Source: Alphaproteobacteria bacterium
Lineage (GTDB): Bacteria > Pseudomonadota > Alphaproteobacteria > UBA9219
Assembly: GCA_041908065.1 (NCBI GenBank)
Contig: JAYRGC010000039.1
Coordinates: 2,481-66,480 of the forward strand
Length of the DNA: 64,000 nucleotides
Direction: 5' to 3'
The notes under the pieces are model-generated. The model made no database searches and had not been told where the DNA came from. It saw only the letters and a list, made by a program, of their open reading frames with translations. This document shows positions 4,748 to 16,201 of this stretch, piece by piece (within the stretch, counting starts at the first letter, position 1; each line of letters begins with the position of its first letter). The translations under genes were made by a program, and so were the position numbers.

Positions 4748-7393
4748 ATGGGTTATAAAGGCCAAATGCATATTGGAATAGATCTTGGAACTTCCAACAG
4801 CGTTATCGCTGGGATAGTCGACGGAGAGGCGAGGGTATTTCATCCCGCCGACGGCGGCGAGGTTTTGCCTTCGGTCATATATATCGACAAGCGCGGTCAT
4901 CGCCTTTATGGGCGCAGGGCGCACGATCAGGCTTTGGTGTCGCCGGAAAACGTGGCCTCGGGCTTCAAGCGTCTGATGGGCACGTCGACGCCGATAACGG
5001 TCAAGGGGGCGGAGGTCACTCTTACGCCGGAGGAGTGTTCGGCGGAGATAATTCGCCAGCTTTTGGGGCAAGTGACTACTGAAACCGGCGAGGAGAATTT
5101 CGACGGCGCGATTATAACCATTCCCGCCGCCTTCAATCAGATGCAGTCCGAGGCCACTTTGCGCGCCGCTCGCATGGCCGGATTGGAGCGCGTTGATTTG
5201 ATACAGGAGCCGATCGCGGCGGCTTTGGCCGCGATGGCGGGGGCTAAACGATCTGGGCAGTTCCTTATATACGATTTAGGCGGCGGAACGTTCGACGTGG
5301 CTTTGGCTCAGGCGATAGAGGGCAACGTCAGCATTGTGGCGCACCAAGGCATCAATATGCTGGGTGGACGCGATTTCGATCGCATGATAGTGAACGAGAT
5401 TGTCCGTCCGTGGCTTGTCGCCAATTTCGATTTGCCCGACAACTTCCAGCGCGATCCGCAATATGCGCGGCTTATCCGCATCGCCCAGCTGGCCGCCGAG
5501 AAAGCCAAGATAGACCTTTCCTCGCTGGAGGAGGCCTCGATATTCGCCTCCGACGACGAAGTTCGCTTGATGGATCAAAACGAGAGCGAGATATTCCTCG
5601 ACGCGCCTATAACCCGCGCCCAGTTTGAAGAGATAATCCGCGAGCCGGTGATGCACACCATAGATATGGTGCGAAAGCTGTTGGAGAGCAACAATTACAG
5701 CAACGACGACATCGACCGCATAGTCTTCATCGGCGGTCCCAGCCGCATTCCGATGGTGCGTGAGATGGTGTCGGAGGAATTGGGCATCGCTCCGGATCTT
5801 CGCACCGATCCCATGACGGCGGTGGCTATGGGAGCCGCTCATTATTGCGAGGGGCGGGAGTGGGACAAGGCCAAGGTTAAAGATTTCAAACCGGCGGCGT
5901 CGCCCGCCGCTGTAGGCGGCGGCAGTTCGCCCAAACCCAAGCACGCTTCGGTGTCGGTTCCTTATCAGGCCACGGCGGAGGTCAAGCCTGCGGCCAAGAC
6001 GGGGGCGGCGGCAGCGGCGGGGACAGCGGGTTTCGGGGTCACCTTCGATTACGATCGACGCACCACGGCGGAAAAAACCGTGCTGGCTTTGCATATAACC
6101 GGAAAGGCTAAGGACGATAATCAGGTTCGCATTTTCGCAGACGGTTGGGATTCCGGAGTGTTGCCTTTGGTGGACGGATTGACCGTGGTGGTTCCTTTAC
6201 GTTCCATGGGCGAAAACCGTTTTCGTTCGCAGGTATTGGACGCCTCCGGCAAGCCTATCGACGGATACGACGGCGACATAACAGTGACGCGAGTGGTGGC
6301 CATGGTCGGCAACATTCCCGCCGCCCAAACCATCGCCGTCAAGGTTTTGGAAAACCCCCATTCCCGCGAAAACGCCTTGATGACTTTGGTGGCCAAGGGC
6401 TCGCCTTTGCCTGCCGAAGGCCACGTCCGTTTCACCAGCGGACGTACGCTGCGATCCGGCGGCGCGGGGTATGTCGGCGTCGAGTTGTTTCAGGTCGAGT
6501 TTCCCGAGCGCGTGGATTTGAATCTGTGCATCGGCATGTTCAGGATAGACGGATACGATCTGCCGTCCGGAGCCGAGATAAAGGCCGGAGATCCTATATC
6601 GTTCGATTGGAACATGAGCGACGGCGGCATACTTCAGGCTACCGTCACGTTGCCCAAGATCGGATTGGAATTGCGCGCTCCTCGTTTTTACGCGCCGCAA
6701 TCGGGACAGGTGTCGTTCAGCGGCGAGGAAGGCAACGCCTTCGCTTCCTCGGTTCTTGATCGCGGCGACGAGGAATGGGGGGATCTGGCGGCGGCTTTGG
6801 GGCCGGACGGCGGGCCGGAAGCGCAGATGCTTCACTCCAGATTGCTGGAGCAGCGCGACGTGTTGAGCGAAGCAGCCGGAGACGCAGAAACCGTGCGCCG
6901 CGTTGTCGAGGAAGCCCGCTTCGTGCGGCAGGACATAGCGCGGCTGGGGCGCAAGCACATAGTTCGCACGTTGCAGCGGCGGTTGGGCAAATTGGTCGCG
7001 GTGTTCAACCGCGTCGCCCGTTCTTCCGCCGAGCAGGAGGAGGAGGCGAGGTTCGAGGAGCTTGAAGGCGCGGTGCAGAGGATAATCGACGACGGCGACG
7101 CCGCCGCTTGCGACGACGCGGCGATTTATCTCAGCGAAATGCGGAATCTGTTCTTCGGCGTGGTATGGCGCGACGACGACTATATCGCCACTTGGTTCAA
7201 ACGCCTGTGCGGCGAGCCGTATTTGTTCACCGACAAGGAAGTTTTCGCTGCCATGGTCGAAGAGGGCGAAGCCTTGCTGGCCAAAGGCGATCGCCCCGCC
7301 ATGCGGGATCTAGTCGCCAGAATGCTGGACGCTCGCATAGCTCTGGGAGTAAACGATATGGCCGGAGAGTTGGCCACCATAGTGAAGGCGTGA
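4748..7393 (+). CDS. atypical long Hsp70-family ATPase (non-DnaK paralog, HscC/YegD-like NBD plus divergent SBD and long helical C-terminal extension)
   Basis: The actin-like ATPase motifs are present: IGIDLGTSNSV (phosphate 1), IYDLGGGTFDVAL (phosphate 2) and the adenosine motif VFIGGPSRIPMV. A beta-sandwich SBD-like region is recognisable (ISFDWNMSDGGILQATVTL). The total of 881 aa is much longer than DnaK. The probable true start is 4766 (MHIGIDLG) with AAGG upstream. Confidence 0.8.
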   Translation: MGYKGQMHIGIDLGTSNSVIAGIVDGEARVFHPADGGEVLPSVIYIDKRGHRLYGRRAHDQALVSPENVASGFKRLMGTSTPITVKGAEVTLTPEECSAEIIRQLLGQVTTETGEENFDGAIITIPAAFNQMQSEATLRAARMAGLERVDLIQEPIAAALAAMAGAKRSGQFLIYDLGGGTFDVALAQAIEGNVSIVAHQGINMLGGRDFDRMIVNEIVRPWLVANFDLPDNFQRDPQYARLIRIAQLAAEKAKIDLSSLEEASIFASDDEVRLMDQNESEIFLDAPITRAQFEEIIREPVMHTIDMVRKLLESNNYSNDDIDRIVFIGGPSRIPMVREMVSEELGIAPDLRTDPMTAVAMGAAHYCEGREWDKAKVKDFKPAASPAAVGGGSSPKPKHASVSVPYQATAEVKPAAKTGAAAAAGTAGFGVTFDYDRRTTAEKTVLALHITGKAKDDNQVRIFADGWDSGVLPLVDGLTVVVPLRSMGENRFRSQVLDASGKPIDGYDGDITVTRVVAMVGNIPAAQTIAVKVLENPHSRENALMTLVAKGSPLPAEGHVRFTSGRTLRSGGAGYVGVELFQVEFPERVDLNLCIGMFRIDGYDLPSGAEIKAGDPISFDWNMSDGGILQATVTLPKIGLELRAPRFYAPQSGQVSFSGEEGNAFASSVLDRGDEEWGDLAAALGPDGGPEAQMLHSRLLEQRDVLSEAAGDAETVRRVVEEARFVRQDIARLGRKHIVRTLQRRLGKLVAVFNRVARSSAEQEEEARFEELEGAVQRIIDDGDAAACDDAAIYLSEMRNLFFGVVWRDDDYIATWFKRLCGEPYLFTDKEVFAAMVEEGEALLAKGDRPAMRDLVARMLDARIALGVNDMAGELATIVKA

Positions 7394-7413
7394 CACAAGA
7401 AAAGGGGGGCGGC

Positions 7414-8157
7414 ATGTCGATAGTTTCTTTTGCTCCGGCGTCGGAAGACGAGGCGCGTTCATTGCTGCGCGACATTGGCGCGGAAGTTAACTGGCCGTTG
7501 GGCAACGGCAGGACGGAGGATGTCCGCCTGTCTGCGGATTCCGTTCAAGTGATGGTCGCGGCATTGCCGTTTTACGACGAATATCGGATGTATTCGCTTT
7601 CCGACCGCTCTCAACCCGCGCCGAACACACGGTACGTTCTGGCCAAGGAGGGGGATATAGGCCTGTTGAATTGGACTAACGAGCCGATATACCTGATAAA
7701 CCAAAAGGCTCCGATAAAGCTGGATCGCAAGACGTTGGTCGCCTATTCCAAGTTTTTCTTCCATTACGTCCGCAACGAATTGGGGCGTTTCGTCATAGTT
7801 GAAAAGCCGGAGGACGTGGCGTGGCTGCCGGAGGCCGACGAGAAGGAAAAGGCCGCCGTCGCCGCCAAGCTGAAGCCGGTCACTTACAAGGGCATCGGGC
7901 GCGATAACTTGTTTTCTCTGGATTGCACAGTTATGTTCCGCAACGCTTTGTTTGCCACCAGCATCAAGGTCGCTCCGTACGAACTTGACGCCTTCGATCC
8001 AGAACAGGGGGCGACCGAGCATATGATCGTCGGGCAGATAAAACTCACCAACGGCGATTTGCTGCTCGAGGATTTACACGTCGATGTCGACCCCCCGCCG
8101 CAGGAGCTTAACAGCCCCAAGATAACCGAGATGAAAGACGAAGATTTTCCCGAATAA
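7414..8157 (+). CDS. hypothetical protein co-transcribed with the Hsp70 paralog
   Basis: The ATG is 20 nt after the Hsp70 stop and is preceded by AAAAGGGGGG. It encodes a 247-aa acidic cytoplasmic protein with no recognisable domain. The longer annotated ORF N-terminus overlaps the upstream gene and is rejected. Confidence 0.55.
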   Translation: MSIVSFAPASEDEARSLLRDIGAEVNWPLGNGRTEDVRLSADSVQVMVAALPFYDEYRMYSLSDRSQPAPNTRYVLAKEGDIGLLNWTNEPIYLINQKAPIKLDRKTLVAYSKFFFHYVRNELGRFVIVEKPEDVAWLPEADEKEKAAVAAKLKPVTYKGIGRDNLFSLDCTVMFRNALFATSIKVAPYELDAFDPEQGATEHMIVGQIKLTNGDLLLEDLHVDVDPPPQELNSPKITEMKDEDFPE

Positions 8158-8170
8158 ATTAAAGATATTT

Positions 8171-8247
8171 GCGCCCTTAGCTCAGTTGGATAGAGCGGCT
8201 GCCTTCTAAGCAGCAGGTCAGAGGTTCGAATCCTCTAGGGCGCGCCA
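8171..8247 (+). tRNA. tRNA-Arg (anticodon TCT)
   Basis: Cloverleaf: acceptor GCGCCCT/AGGGCGC, D-arm GCTC..GAGC, anticodon stem GCTGC/GCAGC with loop CTTCTAA, T-arm GAGGTTCGAATCCTC, discriminator plus CCA encoded. Confidence 0.85.
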
Positions 8248-8265
8248 GTTTTCGAAGCCTCGTGT

Positions 8266-8347
8266 TTCCCTGAGCCTGTCGAAGGGAACTTACGCGATCA
8301 AAGCGCGGCAATCTCCCGCAGTCGCTTCGACAGGCTCAGCGACCGCG
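8266..8347. repeat. family-C palindromic repeat (core GAGCCTGTCGAA / TTCGACAGGCTC in inverted orientation)
   Basis: Two copies of the 12-nt core in opposite orientation, each flanked by short IRs. The same core recurs at 19125-19184, 36265-36289, 37797-37808 and 38054-38078. Confidence 0.8.
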
Positions 8348-8353
8348 TTTCGA

Positions 8354-9862
8354 CTACTCCACCAACCGCATGGTGGGGAAGGCGATGACTTCGCGGATGG
8401 TTTGGCTGTCGGTCATCAGCATCCCAAGGCGGTCGATGCCGATTCCAAGCCCGCCCATCGGCGGCATGCCCAACGCCAAGGCTTCGATGAAATCCTCGTC
8501 TATCGGATGCGGAGGATCGTCGGGGCCGCGTTTCTGCTCTGCTTGCTCCAGAAAACGGGCGCGTTGTTCGCGGGGATCGTTAAGCTCGCTGAAGGCGTTG
8601 GCGATTTCCCAGCCGTTGACGTAGGTCTCGAACCGTTGCGCCACATGCGGCCTGTCCGGCCACGCTTTGGCCAGAGGAGATATTTCCTTGGGCAAGTCGA
8701 TTACGTGTACGGGCTGGATCAGCTTGTCTTCGACTTTTTCGCCGAACACCGCTTCCACCACCTGCCCCCAGCTGGTGCCCGGGTCGATCGCAACGCCCAA
8801 TTTACGCGCCATCGCCCGCGCTTCGTCGCCGTTCTTGCACGACGCGAAATCCTGTCCGGAGTGCTCAAGGATAAGCTCGACCATTCCTTTGCGCGGCCAC
8901 GGCGGGGTGAAGTCAAGCTCCACGTCCGCAAATTTGATTTTTCCGCTGCCGTGCAACGTCATGGCGACGTGGTGGATTATCGTCTCGGTTATATCGATCA
9001 TCGCGTTGAAATCCACATACGCTTGGTATAGCTCAAGCGACGTAAACTCCGGGTTGTGCTTGGGGCTGATGCCCTCGTTGCGGAAGCAGCGGTTTATCTC
9101 GAATAGCTTTTCCGACAGCCCGCCTATCACCAGCCGCTTGAGATGCAGCTCTGGTGCTATCCGCATGTAAAGCGGCATGTCCAGCGCGTTGTGATGGGTG
9201 ACGAAGGGGCGGGCGATGGCTCCGCCGGCGATGACGTGCATCATCGGGGTTTCGACTTCGATGAAGCCGCGTTCGTAAAGGAACTGGCGGATCGAGGCCA
9301 CCATGCGGTAACGCGCCCGCAGGGTTTCGCGGGTGCGAACGTTGGCCACCAAATCCTGCTCGCGGTGACGAAAGCGGGCTTCCACGTCCTTGAGGCCGTG
9401 GAATTTCTCGGGCGGCGGGATGAGGGCTTTGCTCAAAACCATAAGCTCGTCGGCGTCCACGGTTATCTCTCCGCGGGGAGTGCGACGCACTTTGCCCGAT
9501 ACTCCGATGATGTCGCCCAGATCCAGCAACTTCAGCAGCTCGGCGCGCTTGGCCTCGGTTTGCTTGAGATCGTGAAACACCTGCAAACGGTCGCTGTCGT
9601 CCATGACGTCGATGAACATGCCGTTGTTACGGACGGACATGACGCGTCCGGCCACGCGCACGACGGCGTCGGTTTTTTCTCCGGCGGCCAGATGCTCGAA
9701 ACGCTTTTTTATCGCGGCGGCGGAATCCGTCTTGTCGAACTTGGTGACGTGGAAGGGATTGCCGCAAAGCTCGGTTATCTTGTCCAATCGGGAGGAGCGG
9801 CGCGAAATCTCGTCTTCGGGGGCGGCAGAAACGTTTTCAGAAATGGTGGCGGATTCGGTCAT
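8354..9862 (-). CDS. lysS: lysine--tRNA ligase, class II
   Basis: OB-fold N-terminus plus class II motifs (FRNEGIS motif 2 ... GGLGIGIDRLGMLMT motif 3). Length 502 aa. Confidence 0.9.
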   Translation of the reverse strand: MTESATISENVSAAPEDEISRRSSRLDKITELCGNPFHVTKFDKTDSAAAIKKRFEHLAAGEKTDAVVRVAGRVMSVRNNGMFIDVMDDSDRLQVFHDLKQTEAKRAELLKLLDLGDIIGVSGKVRRTPRGEITVDADELMVLSKALIPPPEKFHGLKDVEARFRHREQDLVANVRTRETLRARYRMVASIRQFLYERGFIEVETPMMHVIAGGAIARPFVTHHNALDMPLYMRIAPELHLKRLVIGGLSEKLFEINRCFRNEGISPKHNPEFTSLELYQAYVDFNAMIDITETIIHHVAMTLHGSGKIKFADVELDFTPPWPRKGMVELILEHSGQDFASCKNGDEARAMARKLGVAIDPGTSWGQVVEAVFGEKVEDKLIQPVHVIDLPKEISPLAKAWPDRPHVAQRFETYVNGWEIANAFSELNDPREQRARFLEQAEQKRGPDDPPHPIDEDFIEALALGMPPMGGLGIGIDRLGMLMTDSQTIREVIAFPTMRLVE

Positions 9863-9864
9863 GG

Positions 9865-10119
9865 TTATCCCTTCTCGGTTTCAATTTTATTGCTCGGCCT
9901 ATCGCGTAGCCAAAGGCGCACATTGTGCTTCACTTCGCCACGCGAGTCGAGTTTAGGCATGGGCAACCAGCTAACATGGGCGCGTTGTAGGCTTAGAGCG
10001 CAGCTTTTTTTTACTGATCTATCGGTAATTAGCCGAGGCCAACTCTCTGACCAGCTCTTTTCTAAGCCATAATTCATATGTGCGATATACGTTATTGCCA
10101 ATGGATTTGCCGTTTGCAA
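9865..10119 (-). pseudogene. degenerate duplicated fragment of the 3' end of the downstream methyltransferase gene
   Basis: The translated segment KLDSRGEVKHNVRL (9921-9960) parallels ELDLWREVKHNKPV at the C-terminus of the MTase at 11071-11110. The two DNA copies share attgtgcttcacttcgc and agtcgagtt. Confidence 0.4.
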
Positions 10120-10951
10120 AAGGTTTTAACATCTCAATTGTAGAAGTTGAGTCCGACACTATGTAGTTAACACCCTCGGAAATGCTAACAATGTTGGCAA
10201 AACCACGACGCCCATCGGAGAATATTTCCTGTATCCCCCGCATTTTTTCGTCACTCATCAAACTTCTTGCATCCCATATTTCTATCTGCCCTATCCACAA
10301 ATCCCCACTGCGCAACGTCAGATATTTTTCATCCCGCAAAAGAGAAGCCGTCGGTTCCGAGGTTATAGTTGAACTGGTCTCCTCAAAATAACGCTTTGCC
10401 CCATCGCTTCCAAAATCTGTATGACCGGATATTTCCTCATAGGCTGAGATGTCTCTCGCAGTTGTTATCCTGCTGCGGAAATTAAGTGTGTTGGAAACTA
10501 TCGCCGCCAACAGCAGCTTGTAACTGGTAGCATTGAGCGAGTTTGCGTGGCCGTTTTCCTTGATTTTTTCCCAAACTATCGTAGCGCACGCGCCAACCGG
10601 AACTATCCATGAGCGGACGTCATGGCGAGTGTTCCAATGGCTTTCAAATCCATAGTGGTGGTCGAATACTTCAGTGATTTTATTGTGGTTCACTATGGGG
10701 TCGAAAAAATCGGGGTTTGATACGTCCATAACCACGAAATCGCATGCATCATCAGGAAGGGCATAGTCCTTGGCCGATTTCCATATGGTGGGCAGTTTTC
10801 GCAACATGGGAGGCACGGTGGCGTTGAGCGATGGCGTAAACAACACCATGGCCTTATCTCCACGTTTTCCGAGATAATCTCCGTAAGCCTCGGCGCAAGC
10901 CAGTGCGTCTATGTCTATGTGGCCGCTGCCGCTTGTCACAATTATCGTCAT
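10019..10951 (-). CDS. DHH-family phosphoesterase-like protein
   Basis: DHH motifs are present: GHIDIDALA (motif I, DxD), VMDVS (II) and FDHHYG (III, DHH). The gene is clearly lower in GC than its neighbours. Confidence 0.55.
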   Translation of the reverse strand: MTIIVTSGSGHIDIDALACAEAYGDYLGKRGDKAMVLFTPSLNATVPPMLRKLPTIWKSAKDYALPDDACDFVVMDVSNPDFFDPIVNHNKITEVFDHHYGFESHWNTRHDVRSWIVPVGACATIVWEKIKENGHANSLNATSYKLLLAAIVSNTLNFRSRITTARDISAYEEISGHTDFGSDGAKRYFEETSSTITSEPTASLLRDEKYLTLRSGDLWIGQIEIWDARSLMSDEKMRGIQEIFSDGRRGFANIVSISEGVNYIVSDSTSTIEMLKPFANGKSIGNNVYRTYELWLRKELVRELASANYR

Positions 10952-10984
10952 GGGTTTGCCAATTTTTAAAATCGCATTTGGTTG

Positions 10985-11713
10985 CTATCCAACGAAATGA
11001 TGCGGCTCGCGCCGGAACAGCATGGCGTAGGTTTCGCGTTCGTATTCCATGCCGTGCATGGTGACTGGCTTATTGTGCTTCACTTCGCGCCATAAGTCGA
11101 GTTCCGGCGCGAAAAAATCCAATATCCGCCTGCGGGTGAAGAGTATGGACGCTATTCCGTTGACGGGATCCAGCACCACTTCTTCTCCGGATTCCGGATC
11201 CTGATCGTTCGGGCGTTGGCGATAGCGGCCATAGTAACCGTCGCCGACGCTGGCGAAGGACAGCATATAGTGTCCGCGCGCCCCCAGAACGTTCAGAAGA
11301 TTCTGCTTGTAGGCGATTCGCAGTTCGAGCGGTGAGATGTGCTTGAAGCAAAAAGCGTCCACCACCAGATCCACGTCGTCGCGGCCTATCGGCCAAGGTT
11401 CGGTCACATCGTGAACCAGCTGGCGTATTTTTTCCTTAAGTCCGAATCGGGATGCCGCTTCGGCCAGCGACGAGATGGCGTTGGGGGTAAAGTCCATCGC
11501 CGTTACGCTCATTCCTTGCGAGGCGAGGTAAAGCGAATTGCGCCCTTTGCCGCAACCGACGTCGACAGCGGTTTGCAATCTGGCCTTGTGGTTTTTCAGT
11601 TCCTCGACAGCCCACACGACCGAGCCTGAAGGCGTGGCGCGGACGGAAGACGGGATACCGCCCGCTTCGTATTCTTCGTTCCAAAGTTCCGACGGACTGC
11701 GGTGTTCGGACAT
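10985..11713 (-). CDS. class I SAM-dependent methyltransferase, TehB-like
   Basis: VDVGCGKGRNSLYLASQGMSVTAMDF resembles the TehB SAM-binding motif LDLGCGNGRNSLYLA. The start was chosen at MSEHRS. Confidence 0.7.
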   Translation of the reverse strand: MSEHRSPSELWNEEYEAGGIPSSVRATPSGSVVWAVEELKNHKARLQTAVDVGCGKGRNSLYLASQGMSVTAMDFTPNAISSLAEAASRFGLKEKIRQLVHDVTEPWPIGRDDVDLVVDAFCFKHISPLELRIAYKQNLLNVLGARGHYMLSFASVGDGYYGRYRQRPNDQDPESGEEVVLDPVNGIASILFTRRRILDFFAPELDLWREVKHNKPVTMHGMEYERETYAMLFRREPHHFVG

Positions 11714-11799
11714 GACGGCCTCCGTTGCGCCTATTTTATACCAAGATGGAGCAACGAACCAAGCGCAACGCCTATGGTTTTGCGTAAGAGCGAAAAAGG

Positions 11800-11858
11800 G
11801 CAAAGAAAAACCCCCGTCCGGCGCACCTGCTGACGCGAGGCTGGCCTGACGGGGGTTT
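11800..11858 (-). terminator. intrinsic terminator after the Lys-rich small ORF
   Basis: On the minus strand a stem ACCCCCGTC...GACGGGGGT is followed by TTTTTCTTTGCCCTTTTT. A smaller GC hairpin (GCGCCC-GCAA-GGGCGC) lies between the ORF stop and this terminator. Confidence 0.5.
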
Positions 11859-11895
11859 CCTTAGCAATTTCCTGCGCCCTTGCGGGCGCGGGAGA

Positions 11896-11967
11896 TTACT
11901 TCTTCTTCTTGGCAGTCGCCTTCTTCTTGGCGGGAGCCTTTTTAGCAACCTTCTTCTTAGCAGCCAT
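11896..11967 (-). CDS. 23-aa lysine-rich small ORF (MAAKKKVAKKAPAKKKATAKKKK); candidate leader peptide or tiny basic DNA-binding peptide
   Basis: A perfect SD, AAGGAGG, lies 5 nt before the ATG. There are 12 Lys codons (11 AAG, 1 AAA). A TAA stop is followed by hairpins and an intrinsic terminator. It is below the ORF-track size cutoff and was found by reading the minus strand. Confidence 0.45.
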   Translation of the reverse strand: MAAKKKVAKKAPAKKKATAKKKK

Positions 11968-12322
11968 AGTGACCTCCTTGAGCTAGAGTAGAGAGTAACG
12001 ACATGTTGTGTCCGATAGAGAAACCAGTCAACAACATTTTGTCATCAGCCCCGCTTCGCAATACGAAAAACGATTTTTGTTCGCCATGAGTTGCAGTGAT
12101 GCAACATGCATCGTCGTAGCGATCGATGGAAACAACGCGACGCGAAGAATTCCATTGAACTCAGACCATGCTTTTGTGGCGGCGAAAATATCCGTCATCC
12201 TTTCGCAAAACGATAGGCAAGATCGGTTATGACATAACGTTTGCTAACAAATCGTGAAAATTGTATTGAACTGCATGGGGCGCATGGGGTATCCCTTCGC
12301 TCCGTCCTTCGCTTTCACGCGG

Positions 12323-12399
12323 GGGCCTGTAGCTCAGTTGGTTAGAGCAGGCCGCTCATAACGGTCTGGTCGTAGGTTCAAGTCCTACCGGGCCCACCA
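12323..12399 (+). tRNA. tRNA-Met (anticodon CAT), elongator-type
   Basis: Acceptor GGGCCTG/CGGGCCC with a paired 1:72, D-arm GCTC/GAGC, anticodon stem GGCCG/CGGTC with loop CTCATAA, T-arm GTAGGTTCAAGTCCTAC, CCA encoded. Confidence 0.8.
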
Positions 12400-12427
12400 T
12401 TTCCTCTCTCTTCCGAAAAACGAAATA

Positions 12428-13000
12428 TCAAAAAGCGGCGCGGCAAACGCGGCGCAACGCGCGATCCAAAAAAGCCATGGTTCGCGCCATGTCCGGCGTG
12501 TCGTCGCGCAGCCAATTCAGAATGGCGGCTTCGTGCGCCACGAACAAGGCGAAGGAGAGGACGGCCATTTTCGGGGCGTCGTCGTCCGCGATCGCCGTCT
12601 CGATTATCCGCCGCGCGCTTCGCGCGTGCGCCAAGGCCAACTGCGCTAGCAGACGCGGATCGTTCATGCAGGCCGAGGAGATGGCCTTGATGCCGTCGCG
12701 TCGGAGTTGCAGGGATTCGAATCTCGCCATGGCCGCGTCGAAAAGGCGGTCGTGCGGGCATCCACCTTTTTGCGCGGAGAAAGATGCCGCCATCTCGTCG
12801 TCGATCATGGCGACGATGGCGGGAATCATGTCGTCGCGACGTGGAAATATGTTCTCCGCCGTTTTTGCGGGAATTTTAGCTAGGCGGGCTGCGTCGCGCG
12901 GCGAAACTACGTTCCATCCGCGTCGGGCGGCCAGCTCCAGCGCGGCGGCGCAAATCCTGCGCTTCGCCAAGTTCAGGGATCCTTCGGAAGGCTTCTTCAT
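12428..13000 (-). CDS. TetR/AcrR-family transcriptional regulator
   Basis: N-terminal HTH region (RRICAAALELAARRGWNVVSPRDAARLAKIP) with a helical C-terminal ligand domain. The stop overlaps the coaX start. Confidence 0.55.
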   Translation of the reverse strand: MKKPSEGSLNLAKRRICAAALELAARRGWNVVSPRDAARLAKIPAKTAENIFPRRDDMIPAIVAMIDDEMAASFSAQKGGCPHDRLFDAAMARFESLQLRRDGIKAISSACMNDPRLLAQLALAHARSARRIIETAIADDDAPKMAVLSFALFVAHEAAILNWLRDDTPDMARTMAFLDRALRRVCRAAF

Positions 13001-13779
13001 GACGCGGCGCGTTTCATGTTGCGCTCGTGAATCAGGCGAAGCCCCTTCAGCGTCAGATCAGGGTCGATATGCCCGATGGACGGCACCGTCCCCATGAACA
13101 AGGGAGCCAGTCCGCCCGTGGCCACGACGGTCACCACGCCGCCGTGTTCGTCGCAGATGCGTCCGGTCAACCCCTCGATCATGCCGACGTAGCCCCAGAA
13201 TATGCCGGATTGCATGGCGTCCACGGTGTTGGTTCCGATGGCCTTTTGCGGGCGGGTGATGGCCACGCGCGGCAGTTTGGCCGCCGCCATGTGCAACGCT
13301 TGCAGCGAGAGGTTGATCCCAGGAGCGATAGCCCCGCCGCGATAGTTGCCGTCCTTGTCCACCAGATCGAAGGTGGTGGCGGTTCCGAAGTCGATTAGCA
13401 GCAGCGGCAGGGGATAGGCGTCGGCTCCGGCCACCGCGTTAATAAGGCGATCCGCTCCCACTTCTTCGGGGCGATCGACGATGGCCTTGATGCCCAAGTC
13501 GACCGCCGACGCTCCCACTATCATGGCCGAGCAGCCGAAGTGGTCGTGGCACAGCCGCGCCAGATGGAAGTTGGCCTCCGGCACTACGCTGCCGATTATC
13601 GAGTGTTTCACTTCGCGGGAATCCAGTCCTGCCTCGCGCATCATGGTCTTCAGAAACGCGGCGTATTCGTCGGCGGTGCGCTGCGCGCTGGCTTGAGTTC
13701 GCCATGTAGCGAGAATCTTCTCGCCTTTGAACAGCGCGAAAACGGTGTTGGTGTTGCCTGCGTCGATGGCGAGTAGCAT
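12997..13779 (-). CDS. coaX: type III pantothenate kinase
   Basis: MLLAIDAGNTNTVFALF is the ASKHA N-terminal motif of Baf/CoaX. Length 260 aa. Downstream of birA as usual. Confidence 0.85.
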   Translation of the reverse strand: MLLAIDAGNTNTVFALFKGEKILATWRTQASAQRTADEYAAFLKTMMREAGLDSREVKHSIIGSVVPEANFHLARLCHDHFGCSAMIVGASAVDLGIKAIVDRPEEVGADRLINAVAGADAYPLPLLLIDFGTATTFDLVDKDGNYRGGAIAPGINLSLQALHMAAAKLPRVAITRPQKAIGTNTVDAMQSGIFWGYVGMIEGLTGRICDEHGGVVTVVATGGLAPLFMGTVPSIGHIDPDLTLKGLRLIHERNMKRAAS

Positions 13780-13789
13780 GGTTTGCGCC

Positions 13790-14533
13790 CTATGTCGTTC
13801 GCGGTAGATCGGGAAAAACGTCCCCTGCGGATATAATCCGTTCCGAGCCGTCTGCCAACCGCAGGACGAGATTGCCCAGCGCGTCCAGTCCGGAGAAGTC
13901 TCCGGCGACGGTTTCCGAGGGCAGGCGGACAGAGAGCTTGCCGCGTTGCGCCCGTTCCAGCCATTCCTCGCGCAGTTTATGGAAGCCGTGGAGCTTCAGG
14001 CCGTCGCATCTGGTTCGCAGGGCGTCCATCAGGGCTTTCAGCGCGTCGTCGACGGAGATTTCGGCATGTCCTTCGGCGCGGAGGGATGTGGCGGGATAGA
14101 GCGCGGTTTCGGGATGATGGGCGACGTTTATGCCGACGCCGGCCACCAGCCATTCGACGATGCCGTCATTGACGGGGGCGGCTTCCAGCAGAACGCCGCA
14201 GATTTTGCGGCCACGCGCCAGCACGTCGTTCGGCCATTTCAGCGTCACCTCGGCTCCGATTCCCATAAAGGAGCTTATCGCGTCGTGCGCCGCCAAGGCG
14301 GCGGCGAGGCTATAATGTCCCATGGCTTGCGGCGGACAGCGCGGACGCAACACCATCGAAACATGAAGATTGCCCGCTGGAGAATCCCACGTCCTGCCGT
14401 GCCGTCCGCGCCCTGACGTTTGGCGCAAGGCTTGAATCGCCGTCCATTCCGGCGCGCCGTTTTGCGCGGCCTCTATCGCATCGATGTTGGTGCTGGCCGT
14501 GGTTTCAAGAAGATGGAGAGAATAAAACGGCAT
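13790..14533 (-). CDS. birA: biotin--[acetyl-CoA-carboxylase] ligase
   Basis: The biotin-protein ligase catalytic motif QTSGRGRHGRTWDSPAGNLHVS is present. It follows nuoN, the typical alphaproteobacterial nuoN-birA-coaX synteny. Confidence 0.85.
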   Translation of the reverse strand: MPFYSLHLLETTASTNIDAIEAAQNGAPEWTAIQALRQTSGRGRHGRTWDSPAGNLHVSMVLRPRCPPQAMGHYSLAAALAAHDAISSFMGIGAEVTLKWPNDVLARGRKICGVLLEAAPVNDGIVEWLVAGVGINVAHHPETALYPATSLRAEGHAEISVDDALKALMDALRTRCDGLKLHGFHKLREEWLERAQRGKLSVRLPSETVAGDFSGLDALGNLVLRLADGSERIISAGDVFPDLPRTT

Positions 14534-14573
14534 GGTGTCGCGGGTGCGAAGTTAAAGTCGTTCCGAATAATCT

Positions 14574-14690
14574 CCGTCATTGCGAGCGGCCTTTTTCAGG
14601 CCGCGAAGCAATCCATGGTCACTGGCATAATGGCACTGGATTGCTTCGCCGCCAAGGGGCGGCTCGCAATGACGGCTTTTGGTCGTCTAT
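14574..14690. repeat. family-A nested palindromic repeat, copy A1
   Basis: gtcattgcgagcggcc...gcgaagcaatcca / tggattgcttcgccgccaaggggcggctcgcaatgac inverted arms. Lies between the nuoN 3' end and birA. Confidence 0.85.
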
Positions 14691-14728
14691 CTCACAACTA
14701 ATGGAAATTATTTGGAATAACCATTAAG

Positions 14729-16201
14729 TCAAAGCGCGGCCAAACTTTGCGCCGCCGCCAACGCCCGATCCAGCAGCGGAGCCGGAGCCGCCACCAGCAG
14801 CAGCGCGGCGCAGGCCGCGACAGCCACCCCGAACCGCAGGGACTTTTCCGGCACGCCGTCTATCGCCTTAGCGTCCGCCGCCGCCTCGTCGAAGTACATC
14901 GCCTTGACGACCCGCAAATAGTAGAAGGCGGCGACCACGCTGGCCAAAACGCCGATGACGGCCAAAGGCAGCATTCCGGCCTTCACGGCGGACAGGAAAA
15001 CGAAATACTTGCCGAAGAATCCGGCCATGGGCGGCACTCCGGCCAGCGAGAACATGAACACCGCCATCGCCAAGGCAAGAGCTGGATGCGAACGCGACAG
15101 TCCGGCCACGTCTTGTATTTTTTCCACCTCGTTGCCGTCGCGGCGCAGGCACAAGATGACCGCGAAAGCTCCAAGCGTATTGACGGCGTAGATCGCCATA
15201 TACGTTAACGTCGCTTGGATGCCCATGCTTCCGCCCGCAGCCAAGCCTACCAACGCCGCGCCCACGTTGGCGATGGAGCTGTAGGCCATCAGGCGGCGCA
15301 GGTTGGTTTGCATCAATCCTCCCAGCCCGCCGACCAGCATGGAAGCCACGGCCACGAAGGCGATTATCTGCGTCCACTGGTGCGATAGCCCGCCCATGGG
15401 CTGTTCCAATATCCGCGCCAGCAAGGCCATGGCCGCCAGCTTGGGGGCGGCGGAGAAAAAGGCGGCGACGGACGCGGGCGCGCCTTGGTACACGTCGGGA
15501 GTCCACATATGGAAGGGGACGGCGGATACCTTGAATGCCAGAGCGGCGCAGATGAAAACCATGCCGAACAAGACGCCTAAAGGAACCGTTTCGCCCGATT
15601 GTTGGCGCAAGGATTCCGCGATGGCGGCGAAGCCGGTCGAACCGGCGTATCCGTAAAGCAAAGACGCGCCGTAAAGCAGCATCCCCGAGGCCACCGCCCC
15701 CAGCACGAAGTACTTCAATCCGGCCTCGCCTGATTTGGCGTCGTCGCGGCGGAAGGCGGCCATGACGTAAAGAGGCAGGCTTTGCAGCTCTATGCCCAGA
15801 TAAAGCGTCATCAAGTCGTTGGCCGATACCATGATCATCATGCCCAGCGCGGCGAAGACCGCCAATACGGGATATTCGGGGCAAGAAATCCCCGCCTTGG
15901 ACAGATATGGCGGCGAGATCAGTAACGCTAGCGCGGCGGACAGCAATATCGCTACTTTGGAAAAACGCGCGAAGGCGTCATTGATCAACATCCCGCCCCA
16001 TGCCGCGAAATGGTCGGACGCTTCGCCGCTCGCCGCCATGAAAGCCGCCGTCAGCAACGACAATATCGCCAGAAAGTTGACGGTTTTCACGCCGCCCTTG
16101 TTTCCGAAGGCGGAGGCCAAGAGAAGGACAAGCGCGGCCAAGGCCAGAAAAATCTCCGGCAAAGTGGCGGCTGAGGAGAGCGAGATTTCGGTTGGATTCA
16201 T
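14729..16201 (-). CDS. nuoN: NADH-quinone oxidoreductase subunit N
   Basis: Polytopic antiporter-like subunit with the typical NuoN C-terminal half. The start was chosen at MNPTEISL. Confidence 0.9.
   Translation of the reverse strand: MNPTEISLSSAATLPEIFLALAALVLLLASAFGNKGGVKTVNFLAILSLLTAAFMAASGEASDHFAAWGGMLINDAFARFSKVAILLSAALALLISPPYLSKAGISCPEYPVLAVFAALGMMIMVSANDLMTLYLGIELQSLPLYVMAAFRRDDAKSGEAGLKYFVLGAVASGMLLYGASLLYGYAGSTGFAAIAESLRQQSGETVPLGVLFGMVFICAALAFKVSAVPFHMWTPDVYQGAPASVAAFFSAAPKLAAMALLARILEQPMGGLSHQWTQIIAFVAVASMLVGGLGGLMQTNLRRLMAYSSIANVGAALVGLAAGGSMGIQATLTYMAIYAVNTLGAFAVILCLRRDGNEVEKIQDVAGLSRSHPALALAMAVFMFSLAGVPPMAGFFGKYFVFLSAVKAGMLPLAVIGVLASVVAAFYYLRVVKAMYFDEAAADAKAIDGVPEKSLRFGVAVAACAALLLVAAPAPLLDRALAAAQSLAAL

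What the first reader, a model, noticed from the sequence alone, without database searches (positions are those of the whole stretch)
11800..12030. Lys-codon-rich 23-aa leader-like ORF with hairpins and intrinsic terminator, upstream of a same-strand gene string ending in lysS (candidate ribosome-mediated attenuator)
Seen directly on the minus strand:
- A strong SD (AAGGAGG, 5-nt spacer) precedes the ATG.
- It is followed by 23 codons, of which 12 are Lys (11 AAG, 1 AAA; MAAKKKVAKKAPAKKKATAKKKK).
- The TAA stop is followed by a GC hairpin (GCGCCC-GCAA-GGGCGC) and then a classic intrinsic terminator (ACCCCCGTC...GACGGGGGT plus TTTTTCTTTGCCCTTTTT).
- About 90 nt further downstream the same strand carries a TehB-like methyltransferase, a low-GC DHH gene (a probable later insertion), and then lysS (lysyl-tRNA synthetase).
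- A TTGACT -35-like hexamer lies about 60 nt upstream of the ATG.

This layout is formally analogous to the pheM-pheST and his/trp/leu leader-peptide attenuators, with Lys as the sensed amino acid and the Lys-tRNA synthetase as the regulated output. If it works that way it would be a Lys-tRNA(Lys)-sensing transcription attenuator, which I am not aware of being described. Alternatively the peptide could be a genuine tiny histone-H1-tail-like basic peptide. Either reading is unusual.
Basis: partly seen in the sequence, partly recalled or inferred. Interest (0 to 1): 0.7.

Follow-up and report, generated by a model that had tools for sequence, protein, structure and literature searches.

The report
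Tiny free-standing lysine/alanine-rich peptide gene
The 23-codon lysine-rich reading frame is real, but it looks like a self-contained gene for a tiny histone-H1-tail-like basic peptide, a type found unannotated in many bacterial phyla, and not a lysine-sensing switch for the lysyl-tRNA synthetase gene downstream.

Summary
These are the AAGGAGG Shine-Dalgarno site, a 23-codon ORF with 12 Lys codons, a GC hairpin at the stop codon, a strong intrinsic terminator, and then a methyltransferase, a DHH-family gene and lysS on the same strand.

- Folding: the terminator stem forms with probability about 1.0 for every simulated ribosome position. No antiterminator exists, and blocking the terminator costs 21 kcal/mol.
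- Comparison: six relatives keep the methyltransferase-lysS pair but have no Lys-rich mini-ORF nearby.

- They span at least 15 phyla.
- They usually carry their own terminator.
- They are followed by a convergent gene in 54 of 81 cases.
- lysS was never nearby.

In metagenomes the same 16-residue N-terminus also heads 55-168-aa (AAKKAPAKKK)n proteins that match Pfam HC2 (histone H1-like), and SWIB-domain proteins.

Best reading: a monocistronic gene for a minimal H1-tail-like polycationic peptide that binds nucleic acid or polyphosphate. That function is inferred, not shown.

The parts
12026..12031 (-). Candidate -35 hexamer TTGACT for the mini-ORF transcript. It is unverified: the best -10 at 17 nt is CAACAT, 12008-12003, 3 of 6.
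   Evidence: Sequence. The promoter scan found no site passing its threshold.
11973..11979 (-). Shine-Dalgarno site AAGGAGG, 5 nt before the ATG.
   Evidence: Only 3 of 494 small ATG-ORFs in the window have GGAGG at this spacing.
11896..11967 (-). Mini-ORF of 23 codons plus TAA, encoding MAAKKKVAKKAPAKKKATAKKKK. There are 12 Lys and no acidic, aromatic or large hydrophobic residue.
   Evidence: It belongs to a class of 97 similar ORFs in 120 genome loci. It shares 15 of its first 16 residues with 21-168-aa H1-like ORFs.
11865..11898 (-). Hairpin H1, 14 bp with core GCGCCC-GCAA-GGGCGC, -18.5 kcal/mol. Its 5' base overlaps the stop codon. Its role is unknown, possibly mRNA 3'-end stabilisation.
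   Evidence: It is not a repeated element in the window.
11793..11858 (-). Intrinsic terminator: a 51-nt hairpin at 11858-11808 (-34.7 kcal/mol) with an 11-bp basal stem AAACCCCCGUC/GACGGGGGUUU, then a U-tract UUUUUCUUUGCCCUUUUU.
   Evidence: 57 of 97 family members have an equivalent hairpin plus T-run within 120 nt of the stop.
11735..11762 (-). Candidate separate promoter for the methyltransferase gene: TTGGTT, 16 nt, TGg-TATAAA (an extended -10). It lies between the terminator and the methyltransferase SD (GGAGG, 11723-11719). This is inferred only.
   Evidence: Read from the sequence. It is below the threshold of the scan (-35 is 3 of 6).

Best explanation
The locus is a self-contained, monocistronic small gene.

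How it is expressed:
- A transcript starts somewhere in the 355-nt spacer after the divergent tRNA-Met gene. The promoter has not been identified.
- It carries a strong Shine-Dalgarno site and a 23-codon ORF.
- It ends at its own strong intrinsic terminator.

The product:
- It is a 23-residue Lys/Ala peptide with a net charge of about +12.
- It amounts to about two units of the (A/P)AKKK-type repeat that builds bacterial histone-H1-like proteins such as Hc2, the Burkholderia-type H1-like protein, and the AlgP and PhaF tails.
- By analogy with those proteins, it is inferred to act as a small polycation that binds and neutralises polyanions (DNA, RNA or polyphosphate) rather than as a sensor.

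Relation to the downstream genes:
- The methyltransferase-(DHH)-lysS string is a separate, ancestrally linked unit.
- Any transcription entering it from the mini-ORF would be unregulated terminator leakage.

Shown here: the gene anatomy, the absence of an antiterminator, the recurrence of the class, and the lack of linkage to lysS. Inferred: translation, the binding target and the physiological role.
For: Folding:
- The terminator's basal stem has pairing probability 0.87-1.00 at all 24 simulated ribosome positions.
- Forbidding the terminator costs 21.4 kcal/mol.
- The terminator's 5' arm has no upstream partner in the nascent RNA.

Genome scan:
- The scan constrained only the SD, M-A-x-K-K-K and KK-stop.
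- 97 hits are in-frame ORFs of 16-38 codons with at least 40% Lys.
- They occur in Acidobacteriota, Gemmatimonadota, Alpha-, Beta- and Gammaproteobacteria, Bdellovibrionota, Myxococcota, Eisenbacteria, Dormibacterota, Binatota, Planctomycetota, Omnitrophota, Nitrospirota, Chloroflexota, Actinomycetota and others.
- The closest is Vineibacter terrae, MAAKKKAAKKAPAKKKAAKKKK.

Composition of the class:
- K 60%, A 28%, T 6%, and G, S, V, P 1-2% each.
- There is no D, E, N, Q or aromatic residue, although E, N and Q are one mutation away from a Lys codon.
- Identical peptides differ by 3-5 synonymous changes while their flanks are about 60% different.

Gene architecture and context:
- 57 of 97 have a hairpin of -10 kcal/mol or stronger plus a T-run after the stop.
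- The next gene downstream is on the opposite strand in 54 of 81 cases.
- Downstream neighbours belong to 59 different Pfam families, with no tRNA-synt_2.
- tblastn with the window's LysRS, methyltransferase and DHH proteins found nothing in the 863 kb of loci.
- Alphaproteobacterial members sit after gatB, class II RNR or ftsY.

Metagenome scan on the first 16 codons, with no SD or stop constraint:
- It gave tiny ORFs of 21-29 aa, repeat proteins of 55-168 aa, and 102-aa SWIB proteins, all with the same N-terminus.
- The long forms hit Pfam HC2 at 46.8 bits against a cutoff of 40, and NCBIfam histone H1-like models.
- 6 of 7 tiny forms have an SD although none was required.

Literature on related repeats:
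- The KPAA-repeat tail of PhaF binds RNA through its lysines (PMC12818456).
- By the titles and abstracts listed, AlgP, a histone H1-like protein, affects polyphosphate granule spacing (PMC9239181), and Hc2 binds DNA and varies in its number of lysine-rich pentamers (PMC2848022).
Against: - There is no direct evidence of transcription or translation for this or any family member.
- The peptide is in no protein collection and matches no Pfam or NCBIfam model.
- Low-complexity sequence cannot establish homology, so the 'class' may include convergent members.
- The genome scan pattern itself imposed 8 residues, the SD and the length range.
- No promoter passes the consensus scan.
- 40 of 97 members lack a terminator detectable by my simple criterion.
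- The role of hairpin H1 at the stop codon is unexplained.
- The binding target (DNA, RNA, ribosome or polyphosphate) rests on analogy only.
Confidence: 0.65

Rival explanations
1. Lys-tRNA(Lys)-sensing ribosome-mediated transcription attenuator. Ribosome stalling at Lys codons would switch the leader RNA from a terminator to an antiterminator and raise expression of methyltransferase-DHH-lysS.
For: - The formal layout is present: an SD, a short ORF with 12 Lys codons, a terminator, then same-strand genes ending in lysS.
- A Thr/Lys-codon leader peptide has been proposed for another gene in Sinorhizobium (SEP5; PMC10117765), so Lys-codon leaders are not unthinkable.
Against: - No alternative pairing competes with the terminator. 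Stem probability is about 1.0 for all ribosome positions, and the penalty for blocking it is 21.4 kcal/mol.
- The stop codon is 38 nt upstream of the terminator stem.
- Lys codons are spread over the whole ORF rather than clustered next to a switch.
- lysS lies about 2 kb and two genes away. An SD and a plausible extended -10 promoter precede the methyltransferase gene.
- Six relatives keep methyltransferase-lysS without any Lys-rich ORF within up to 10 kb.
- 0 of 79 downstream neighbours of family members is an aminoacyl-tRNA synthetase, and two thirds of the neighbours are convergent.
Confidence: 0.03
2. A functionless short allele or decaying remnant. Repeat-number slippage in an H1-like (AAKKAPAKKK)n gene left a two-unit stump that is still expressed but has no selected role, or the ORF is not expressed at all.
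For: - ORFs with the same N-terminus form a length series: 21, 22, 24, 25, 29, 55, 56, 69, 75, 80, 86, 90, 110 and 162-168 aa.
- One metagenome ORF with the identical first 16 residues, including Val7, runs to at least 38 aa (L206).
- By the abstract listed, Hc2 is known to vary in repeat number (PMC2848022).
Against: - The SD, the ATG and a stop directly abutting the hairpin and terminator are all intact.
- The tiny form recurs in many phyla, including cultured isolates and long-read megabase contigs.
- Acidic and polar substitutions are strictly absent, and identical peptides differ by synonymous changes. That argues for continuing selection on the peptide.
Confidence: 0.15
3. The functional product is the RNA: a roughly 170-220-nt structured small RNA, or a dual-function RNA. 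The Lys-rich ORF would be incidental or secondary.
For: - The 211-nt region folds more stably than shuffles (z = -3.7).
- The A-rich AAG run can pair with the U-tract in the minimum-free-energy structure.
- The unit is short and terminator-bounded, like an sRNA gene.
Against: - There is no Rfam match at E up to 1.
- Across the class, what is conserved is the reading frame and the amino-acid composition, while the flanks are saturated with changes.
- Most of the fold stability comes from the terminator and H1 alone.
Confidence: 0.07

Closest known systems
Bacterial histone H1-like Lys/Ala-repeat proteins: Chlamydia Hc2 (Pfam PF07382), NCBIfam NF038053 'histone H1-like DNA-binding protein', and the KPAA-repeat tails of Pseudomonas AlgP and PhaF
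   Same: - The composition is the same: Lys, Ala, Pro and Thr only.
- The short AKKA/PAKKK-type repeat units are the same.
- ORFs that match the window peptide at 15 of its first 16 residues and run to 80-163 aa match these models.
- The expected mode of action is electrostatic binding of DNA, RNA or polyphosphate (PMC12818456, read; PMC9239181 and PMC2848022, titles and abstracts).
   Different: - It is only 23 residues, about two repeat units, against 100-350 residues.
- It has no folded or oligomerising partner domain.
- It is too short to reach any HMM threshold.
- It is a free-standing monocistronic gene and is not annotated in the source collection.
Leader-peptide transcription attenuators (trp, his, leu, thr, pheA, pheST)
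   Same: A short SD-preceded ORF enriched in one codon type, followed by a terminator and same-strand genes. One of those genes is the cognate aminoacyl-tRNA synthetase, as in pheM-pheST.
   Different: - There is no antiterminator.
- The terminator is out of reach of the ribosome.
- Lys codons fill the whole ORF.
- The linkage to lysS is not conserved.
- The same kind of ORF elsewhere is usually followed by a convergent gene.
Very small, highly basic ribosomal proteins (bTHX, bS22, bL37, eukaryotic eL41). The comparison is from my own knowledge of these proteins.
   Same: Size of 24-33 residues, extreme positive charge, and strong translation signals.
   Different: - Those proteins are Arg-rich with specific conserved motifs.
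- There was no NCBIfam match.
- There is no linkage to ribosomal protein genes among 163 neighbours.
- Ribosome association is untested.

Membership tests
Ribosome-mediated leader-peptide attenuator | A short translated leader ORF enriched in codons of the sensed amino acid | tested here: met
   12 of 23 codons are Lys, and a strong SD is present. The codons are spread over the whole ORF rather than clustered.
Ribosome-mediated leader-peptide attenuator | An intrinsic terminator between the leader ORF and the regulated genes | tested here: met
   A -34.7 kcal/mol hairpin plus U-tract at 11858-11793.
Ribosome-mediated leader-peptide attenuator | An antiterminator structure that is mutually exclusive with the terminator and is selected by ribosome position | tested here: not met
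   - Terminator stem probability is 0.87-1.00 for 24 ribosome positions.
- There is no upstream partner for the 5' arm.
- The penalty for blocking the terminator is 21.4 kcal/mol.
- The stop codon is 38 nt from the stem.
Ribosome-mediated leader-peptide attenuator | Conserved linkage of the leader to genes for synthesis or charging of the sensed amino acid | tested here: not met
   - Six relatives with methyltransferase-lysS lack the ORF.
- No LysRS homolog is found in 120 genome loci or 36 metagenome loci carrying such ORFs.
- The downstream gene is convergent in 54 of 81 cases.
Histone H1-like Lys/Ala-repeat proteins (PF07382 HC2 / NF038053) | Lys/Ala/Pro/Thr low-complexity composition without acidic or aromatic residues | tested here: met
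   The peptide has K12 A7 V1 P1 T1 M1. Class composition is K 60%, A 28%, T 6%.
Histone H1-like Lys/Ala-repeat proteins (PF07382 HC2 / NF038053) | Tandem short repeat units (AKKA/PAKKK type), with copy number varying between relatives | tested here: inconclusive
   Only about two units are present. ORFs with the same N-terminus form a series of 21-168 aa built from AAKKAPAKKK units.
Histone H1-like Lys/Ala-repeat proteins (PF07382 HC2 / NF038053) | A match to the family HMM above its curated cutoff | tested here: not met
   - The 23-aa peptide and four other tiny members give no hit at E up to 10.
- A 163-aa ORF with the same first 16 residues scores 46.8 bits against a cutoff of 40 for HC2.
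- That ORF stays below the NCBIfam cutoffs.
Histone H1-like Lys/Ala-repeat proteins (PF07382 HC2 / NF038053) | Binding of DNA, RNA or polyphosphate | not testable with these tools
   This needs gel-shift assays with the synthetic peptide, or in vivo crosslinking.
Tiny basic ribosomal proteins (bTHX, bS22, bL37) | A match to the family model, or presence in purified ribosomes | tested here: not met
   There is no NCBIfam hit. Ribosome association is not testable here.

The most novel reading that the evidence does not exclude
Free-standing 16-29-residue poly(Lys/Ala) 'micro-H1' peptides are a widespread class of abundant bacterial polycations that are essentially unannotated. They occur in at least 15 phyla, sometimes in two copies per genome or in tandem. 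On this reading they have a dedicated cellular role, for example as protamine-like nucleoid counter-ions, as rRNA- or ribosome-bound microproteins, or as organisers of polyphosphate granules. Standard gene callers (minimum length) and tryptic proteomics (all-Lys peptides) both miss them.
Probability: 0.3. Interest if true: 0.6.

Novelty: new variant of a known kind. Interest (0 to 1): 0.4.

Why it matters
A new lysine-sensing attenuator of an aminoacyl-tRNA synthetase would have been a new regulatory class. The evidence removes that claim.

What remains is more modest but useful. The smallest possible version of the bacterial histone-H1-like repeat proteins exists as an independent gene with its own ribosome-binding site and terminator. 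Similar genes recur across many phyla, and this peptide is absent from the protein collection searched.

If these peptides are made in quantity, they would be a hidden component of the cell's polycation budget, alongside polyamines, Mg2+ and nucleoid-associated proteins. That is relevant to nucleoid compaction, RNA and ribosome charge neutralisation, and polyphosphate biology.

The case also shows that a codon-rich mini-ORF followed by a terminator is not sufficient evidence for attenuation.

Tried and rejected
- Rfam at E up to 1 on 8000-16000 found only the two tRNAs.
- The consensus promoter scan found no sigma-70-like site. Its terminator scan missed the real terminator because the loop exceeds its limit.
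- NCBIfam and Pfam on the peptide and four relatives gave no hits.
- The search for homologous proteins refuses queries under 40 aa. A 55-aa repeat relative gave no significant hit, presumably because of composition filtering.
- The exact-sequence look-up of the peptide found it is not in the collection.
- The viral scan without an SD gave 56 hits. Those checked in detail (L029, L049) are the C-terminal tails of 87- and 77-aa ORFs. The rest are mostly 'GGMAAKKKMMRGGMAKKKK'-type ends preceded by coding-like sequence rather than an SD, so I read them as tails of longer phage proteins and not as mini-ORFs.
- Literal peptide strings found 0 papers. Keyword searches found no description of free-standing Lys/Ala mini-ORFs or of a Lys leader for lysS.
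- Hairpin H1 as a repeated palindromic element is rejected: there is a single copy in the window, which is no more than chance.
- Assembly collapse of a longer repeat gene is rejected.
- There is no flank homology between the window and any metagenome hit.

Full report
**Observation**

On the minus strand, an AAGGAGG Shine-Dalgarno site (11979-11973) sits 5 nt before an ATG at 11967. The ATG opens a 23-codon ORF, MAAKKKVAKKAPAKKKATAKKKK, with 11 AAG and 1 AAA, ending in TAA at 11898-11896. An in-frame TAG 18 nt upstream rules out a longer ORF.

Two hairpins follow the ORF.
- A 14-bp hairpin (11898-11865, -18.5 kcal/mol) starts at the stop codon.
- A 51-nt hairpin (11858-11808, -34.7 kcal/mol) with a U-tract forms a strong intrinsic terminator.

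Downstream on the same strand lie three genes.
- A TehB-like SAM methyltransferase (11713-10985).
- A low-GC DHH-like gene (10951-10019).
- A class II lysS (9862-8354).

Upstream there is a divergent tRNA-Met (12323-12399, +), and then a TetR-like gene, coaX, birA and nuoN.

The ORF is not a chance feature.
- Lys is 3.6% of codons in the window's long genes and 52% here.
- It is the extreme outlier of 494 small ATG-ORFs and one of three with GGAGG at the right spacing.
- It is the only K-rich mini-ORF in the window.
- An independent assembly is identical over this stretch, and the longest internal DNA repeat is 12 nt.

The one weak point is the promoter: TTGACT (12031-12026) has no convincing -10, and no site passes the consensus scan.

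**Test of the attenuator model by folding**

I folded the leader with a 30-nt ribosome footprint placed at each of the 24 codons.
- The basal stem of the terminator kept a pairing probability of 0.87-1.00 throughout.
- In the RNA made before the 3' arm appears, the 5' arm has no upstream partner.
- Forbidding the terminator costs 21.4 kcal/mol.
- The stop codon is 38 nt upstream of the stem, so a ribosome at or before the stop cannot touch it.
- A ribosome can melt only hairpin H1. The freed 3' arm of H1 has nothing that competes with the terminator.

Between the terminator and the methyltransferase ATG there is a GGAGG site and a plausible extended -10 promoter: TTGGTT, 16 nt, TGgTATAAA. This is read and is inferred only. 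The defining feature of leader-peptide attenuation, a mutually exclusive antiterminator, is therefore absent.

**Test by comparison**

Homologs of the methyltransferase at 57-66% identity come from uncultured Alphaproteobacteria. In six of seven loci fetched, the methyltransferase is directly followed by class II lysS (L001, L002, L003, L218, L219, L220). The pair is therefore ancestral, and the DHH gene in the window is an insertion.

Upstream of the pair there is a Peptidase_S24 gene in five loci and a divergent thiolase in one. None of these loci has an Ala/Lys mini-ORF within up to 10 kb. The mini-ORF is not a conserved companion of lysS.

**Where else the mini-ORF occurs: genome scan**

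I scanned one genome per species with GGAG, 4-10 nt, M-A-x-K-K-K, 24-54 nt, K-K-stop.

The hits share these properties.
- 97 hits are in-frame ORFs of 16-38 codons with at least 40% Lys. Almost all are made only of K, A and T, for example MAAKKKAAKKKATKKKAAKKK. The pattern did not constrain the interior or the frame.
- They come from at least 15 phyla and include cultured isolates and megabase long-read contigs.
- The closest to the window is Vineibacter terrae, MAAKKKAAKKAPAKKKAAKKKK.
- Pooled composition is K 60%, A 28%, T 6% and G, S, V, P 1-2% each. There is no D, E, N, Q or aromatic residue, although E, N and Q are single mutations from Lys codons.
- Identical peptides differ by several synonymous changes while their flanks are saturated. 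That pair comparison is biased by how I chose the pairs.

The genomic context does not fit a leader role.
- 57 of 97 have a strong hairpin plus T-run within 120 nt of the stop.
- The next gene downstream is on the opposite strand in 54 of 81 cases.
- Downstream neighbours fall into 59 Pfam families with no recurrence and no aminoacyl-tRNA synthetase.
- Upstream neighbours show only lineage-level synteny: gatB, class II RNR, Orn/Arg decarboxylase and TldD.
- tblastn with the window's LysRS, methyltransferase and DHH proteins found nothing in the 863 kb of loci.

These ORFs behave as free-standing genes, not as leaders.

**Relation to known proteins**

A metagenome scan for the first 16 codons, with residue 7 free and no SD or stop constraint, gave 36 loci. 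The same N-terminus heads three kinds of ORF.
- Complete ORFs of 21, 22, 22, 22, 24, 25 and 29 aa. Six of the seven have an unforced SD.
- (AAKKAPAKKK)n proteins of 55-168 aa.
- 102-aa proteins in which the tail precedes a SWIB domain.

The database matches are as follows.
- The long repeat proteins match Pfam HC2, 'histone H1-like nucleoprotein', at 46.8 bits against a cutoff of 40. They also match NCBIfam histone H1-like models below cutoff.
- The SWIB assignment is firm (2e-31).
- The 23-residue peptide is too short and too biased to hit any model.

The window peptide is therefore the two-unit end of a length series of H1-like Lys/Ala repeat proteins.

Published work on such repeats shows three things.
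- Lysine-dependent RNA binding and translational activation by the PhaF KPAA tail (PMC12818456).
- By the titles and abstracts listed, a role of the H1-like protein AlgP in polyphosphate granule spacing (PMC9239181).
- By the abstract listed, DNA binding with variable repeat number in Hc2 (PMC2848022).

I found no paper describing free-standing mini-ORFs of this type, and none describing a Lys leader for lysS. A Thr/Lys-codon candidate leader for another gene has been suggested in Sinorhizobium (PMC10117765).

**Conclusion**

The most likely reading is a monocistronic gene for a 23-residue H1-tail-like polycation, with confidence 0.65. Its expression and its target (DNA, RNA or ribosome, or polyphosphate) are inferred. 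The rivals are:
- a functionless short allele or remnant (0.15);
- an RNA-level function (0.07);
- the Lys-sensing attenuator (0.03).

Remaining doubts:
- there are no expression data;
- low complexity makes homology unprovable;
- the genome pattern imposed part of the similarity;
- the promoter is unidentified;
- hairpin H1 at the stop codon is unexplained.

The finding is a new variant of a known kind. Its main interest is that the tiny form is common across phyla and that this peptide is absent from the protein collection searched.

Noticed in passing
window 10019-10951 (-): A DHH-family (weak Pfam DHH; Mn-dependent pyrophosphatase-like) gene with GC 0.43-0.48, against about 0.58-0.62 around it. 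It sits between the methyltransferase gene and lysS. In six relatives these two genes are adjacent or overlapping, so this looks like a recent insertion into an ancestral gene pair.
   Followed up: partly
L001, L002, L003, L218, L219, L220 (methyltransferase at about 6001 or 10001 in each): A TehB-like SAM methyltransferase is directly followed by class II lysS in six of seven related alphaproteobacterial loci, and the two genes overlap in L001. This conserved pairing suggests a functional link. The function was not explored.
   Followed up: no
L189, L190, L192, L196, L200, L208, L211, L213, L216, L217 (metagenome contigs): 102-aa bacterial SWIB/MDM2-domain proteins carry the same MAAKKKAAKKAPAKKK sequence as an N-terminal tail. 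The Lys/Ala module is therefore reused as a tail on a folded chromatin-type domain.
   Followed up: partly
L078 1779-2253 (-) and L110 1352-1638 (-); L084 and L089: Two Lys/Ala mini-ORFs lie in tandem 130-330 nt apart in a Dormibacterota contig. One of the two peptides recurs, with a single synonymous difference, in a contig labelled Micrarchaeaceae archaeon, which is probably mis-binned. One Bdellovibrionota genome (FG-2) has two copies on different contigs.
   Followed up: partly
L102, L128, L150, L161 (and L070): An alphaproteobacterial subgroup (including Rhizomicrobium) shares the identical 16 nt GATAGAGGAGTTGAAC before the ATG. In the four loci where the upstream gene is visible (not L070), the mini-ORF lies about 237 nt downstream of gatB. 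In Vineibacter and Caenispirillum the mini-ORF follows the class II ribonucleotide reductase gene instead.
   Followed up: partly
L006-L061 (IMG/VR contigs), e.g. L006 12443-12496 (-): Many viral contigs of GC about 0.40-0.45 encode reading frames ending in ...GGMAAKKKMMRGGMAKKKK. This looks like a Gly/Met/Lys-rich C-terminal tail of a phage protein whose identity was not determined.
   Followed up: no
L218 9116-9262, L220 8333-8488, L003 3486-3662 (+): Small basic ORFs of 48-58 aa share a KPSxAFLxALExVK motif. They lie just upstream of the Peptidase_S24 (LexA-like) gene that precedes methyltransferase-lysS in relatives. They have no Pfam hit on record.
   Followed up: no
window 12323-12399 (+) and 8171-8247 (+): tRNA-Met(CAT) and tRNA-Arg(TCT) bracket the mini-ORF-methyltransferase-DHH-lysS block on the opposite strand. 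The independent Logan contig L005 ends inside the tRNA-Met gene.
   Followed up: no
window 4748-7393 (+): An 881-aa ORF has an N-terminal Hsp70/MreB-like ATPase domain (residues 9-368) and a long C-terminal part with no family hit. The next ORF, 349 aa at 7108-8157, also has no family hit.
   Followed up: no
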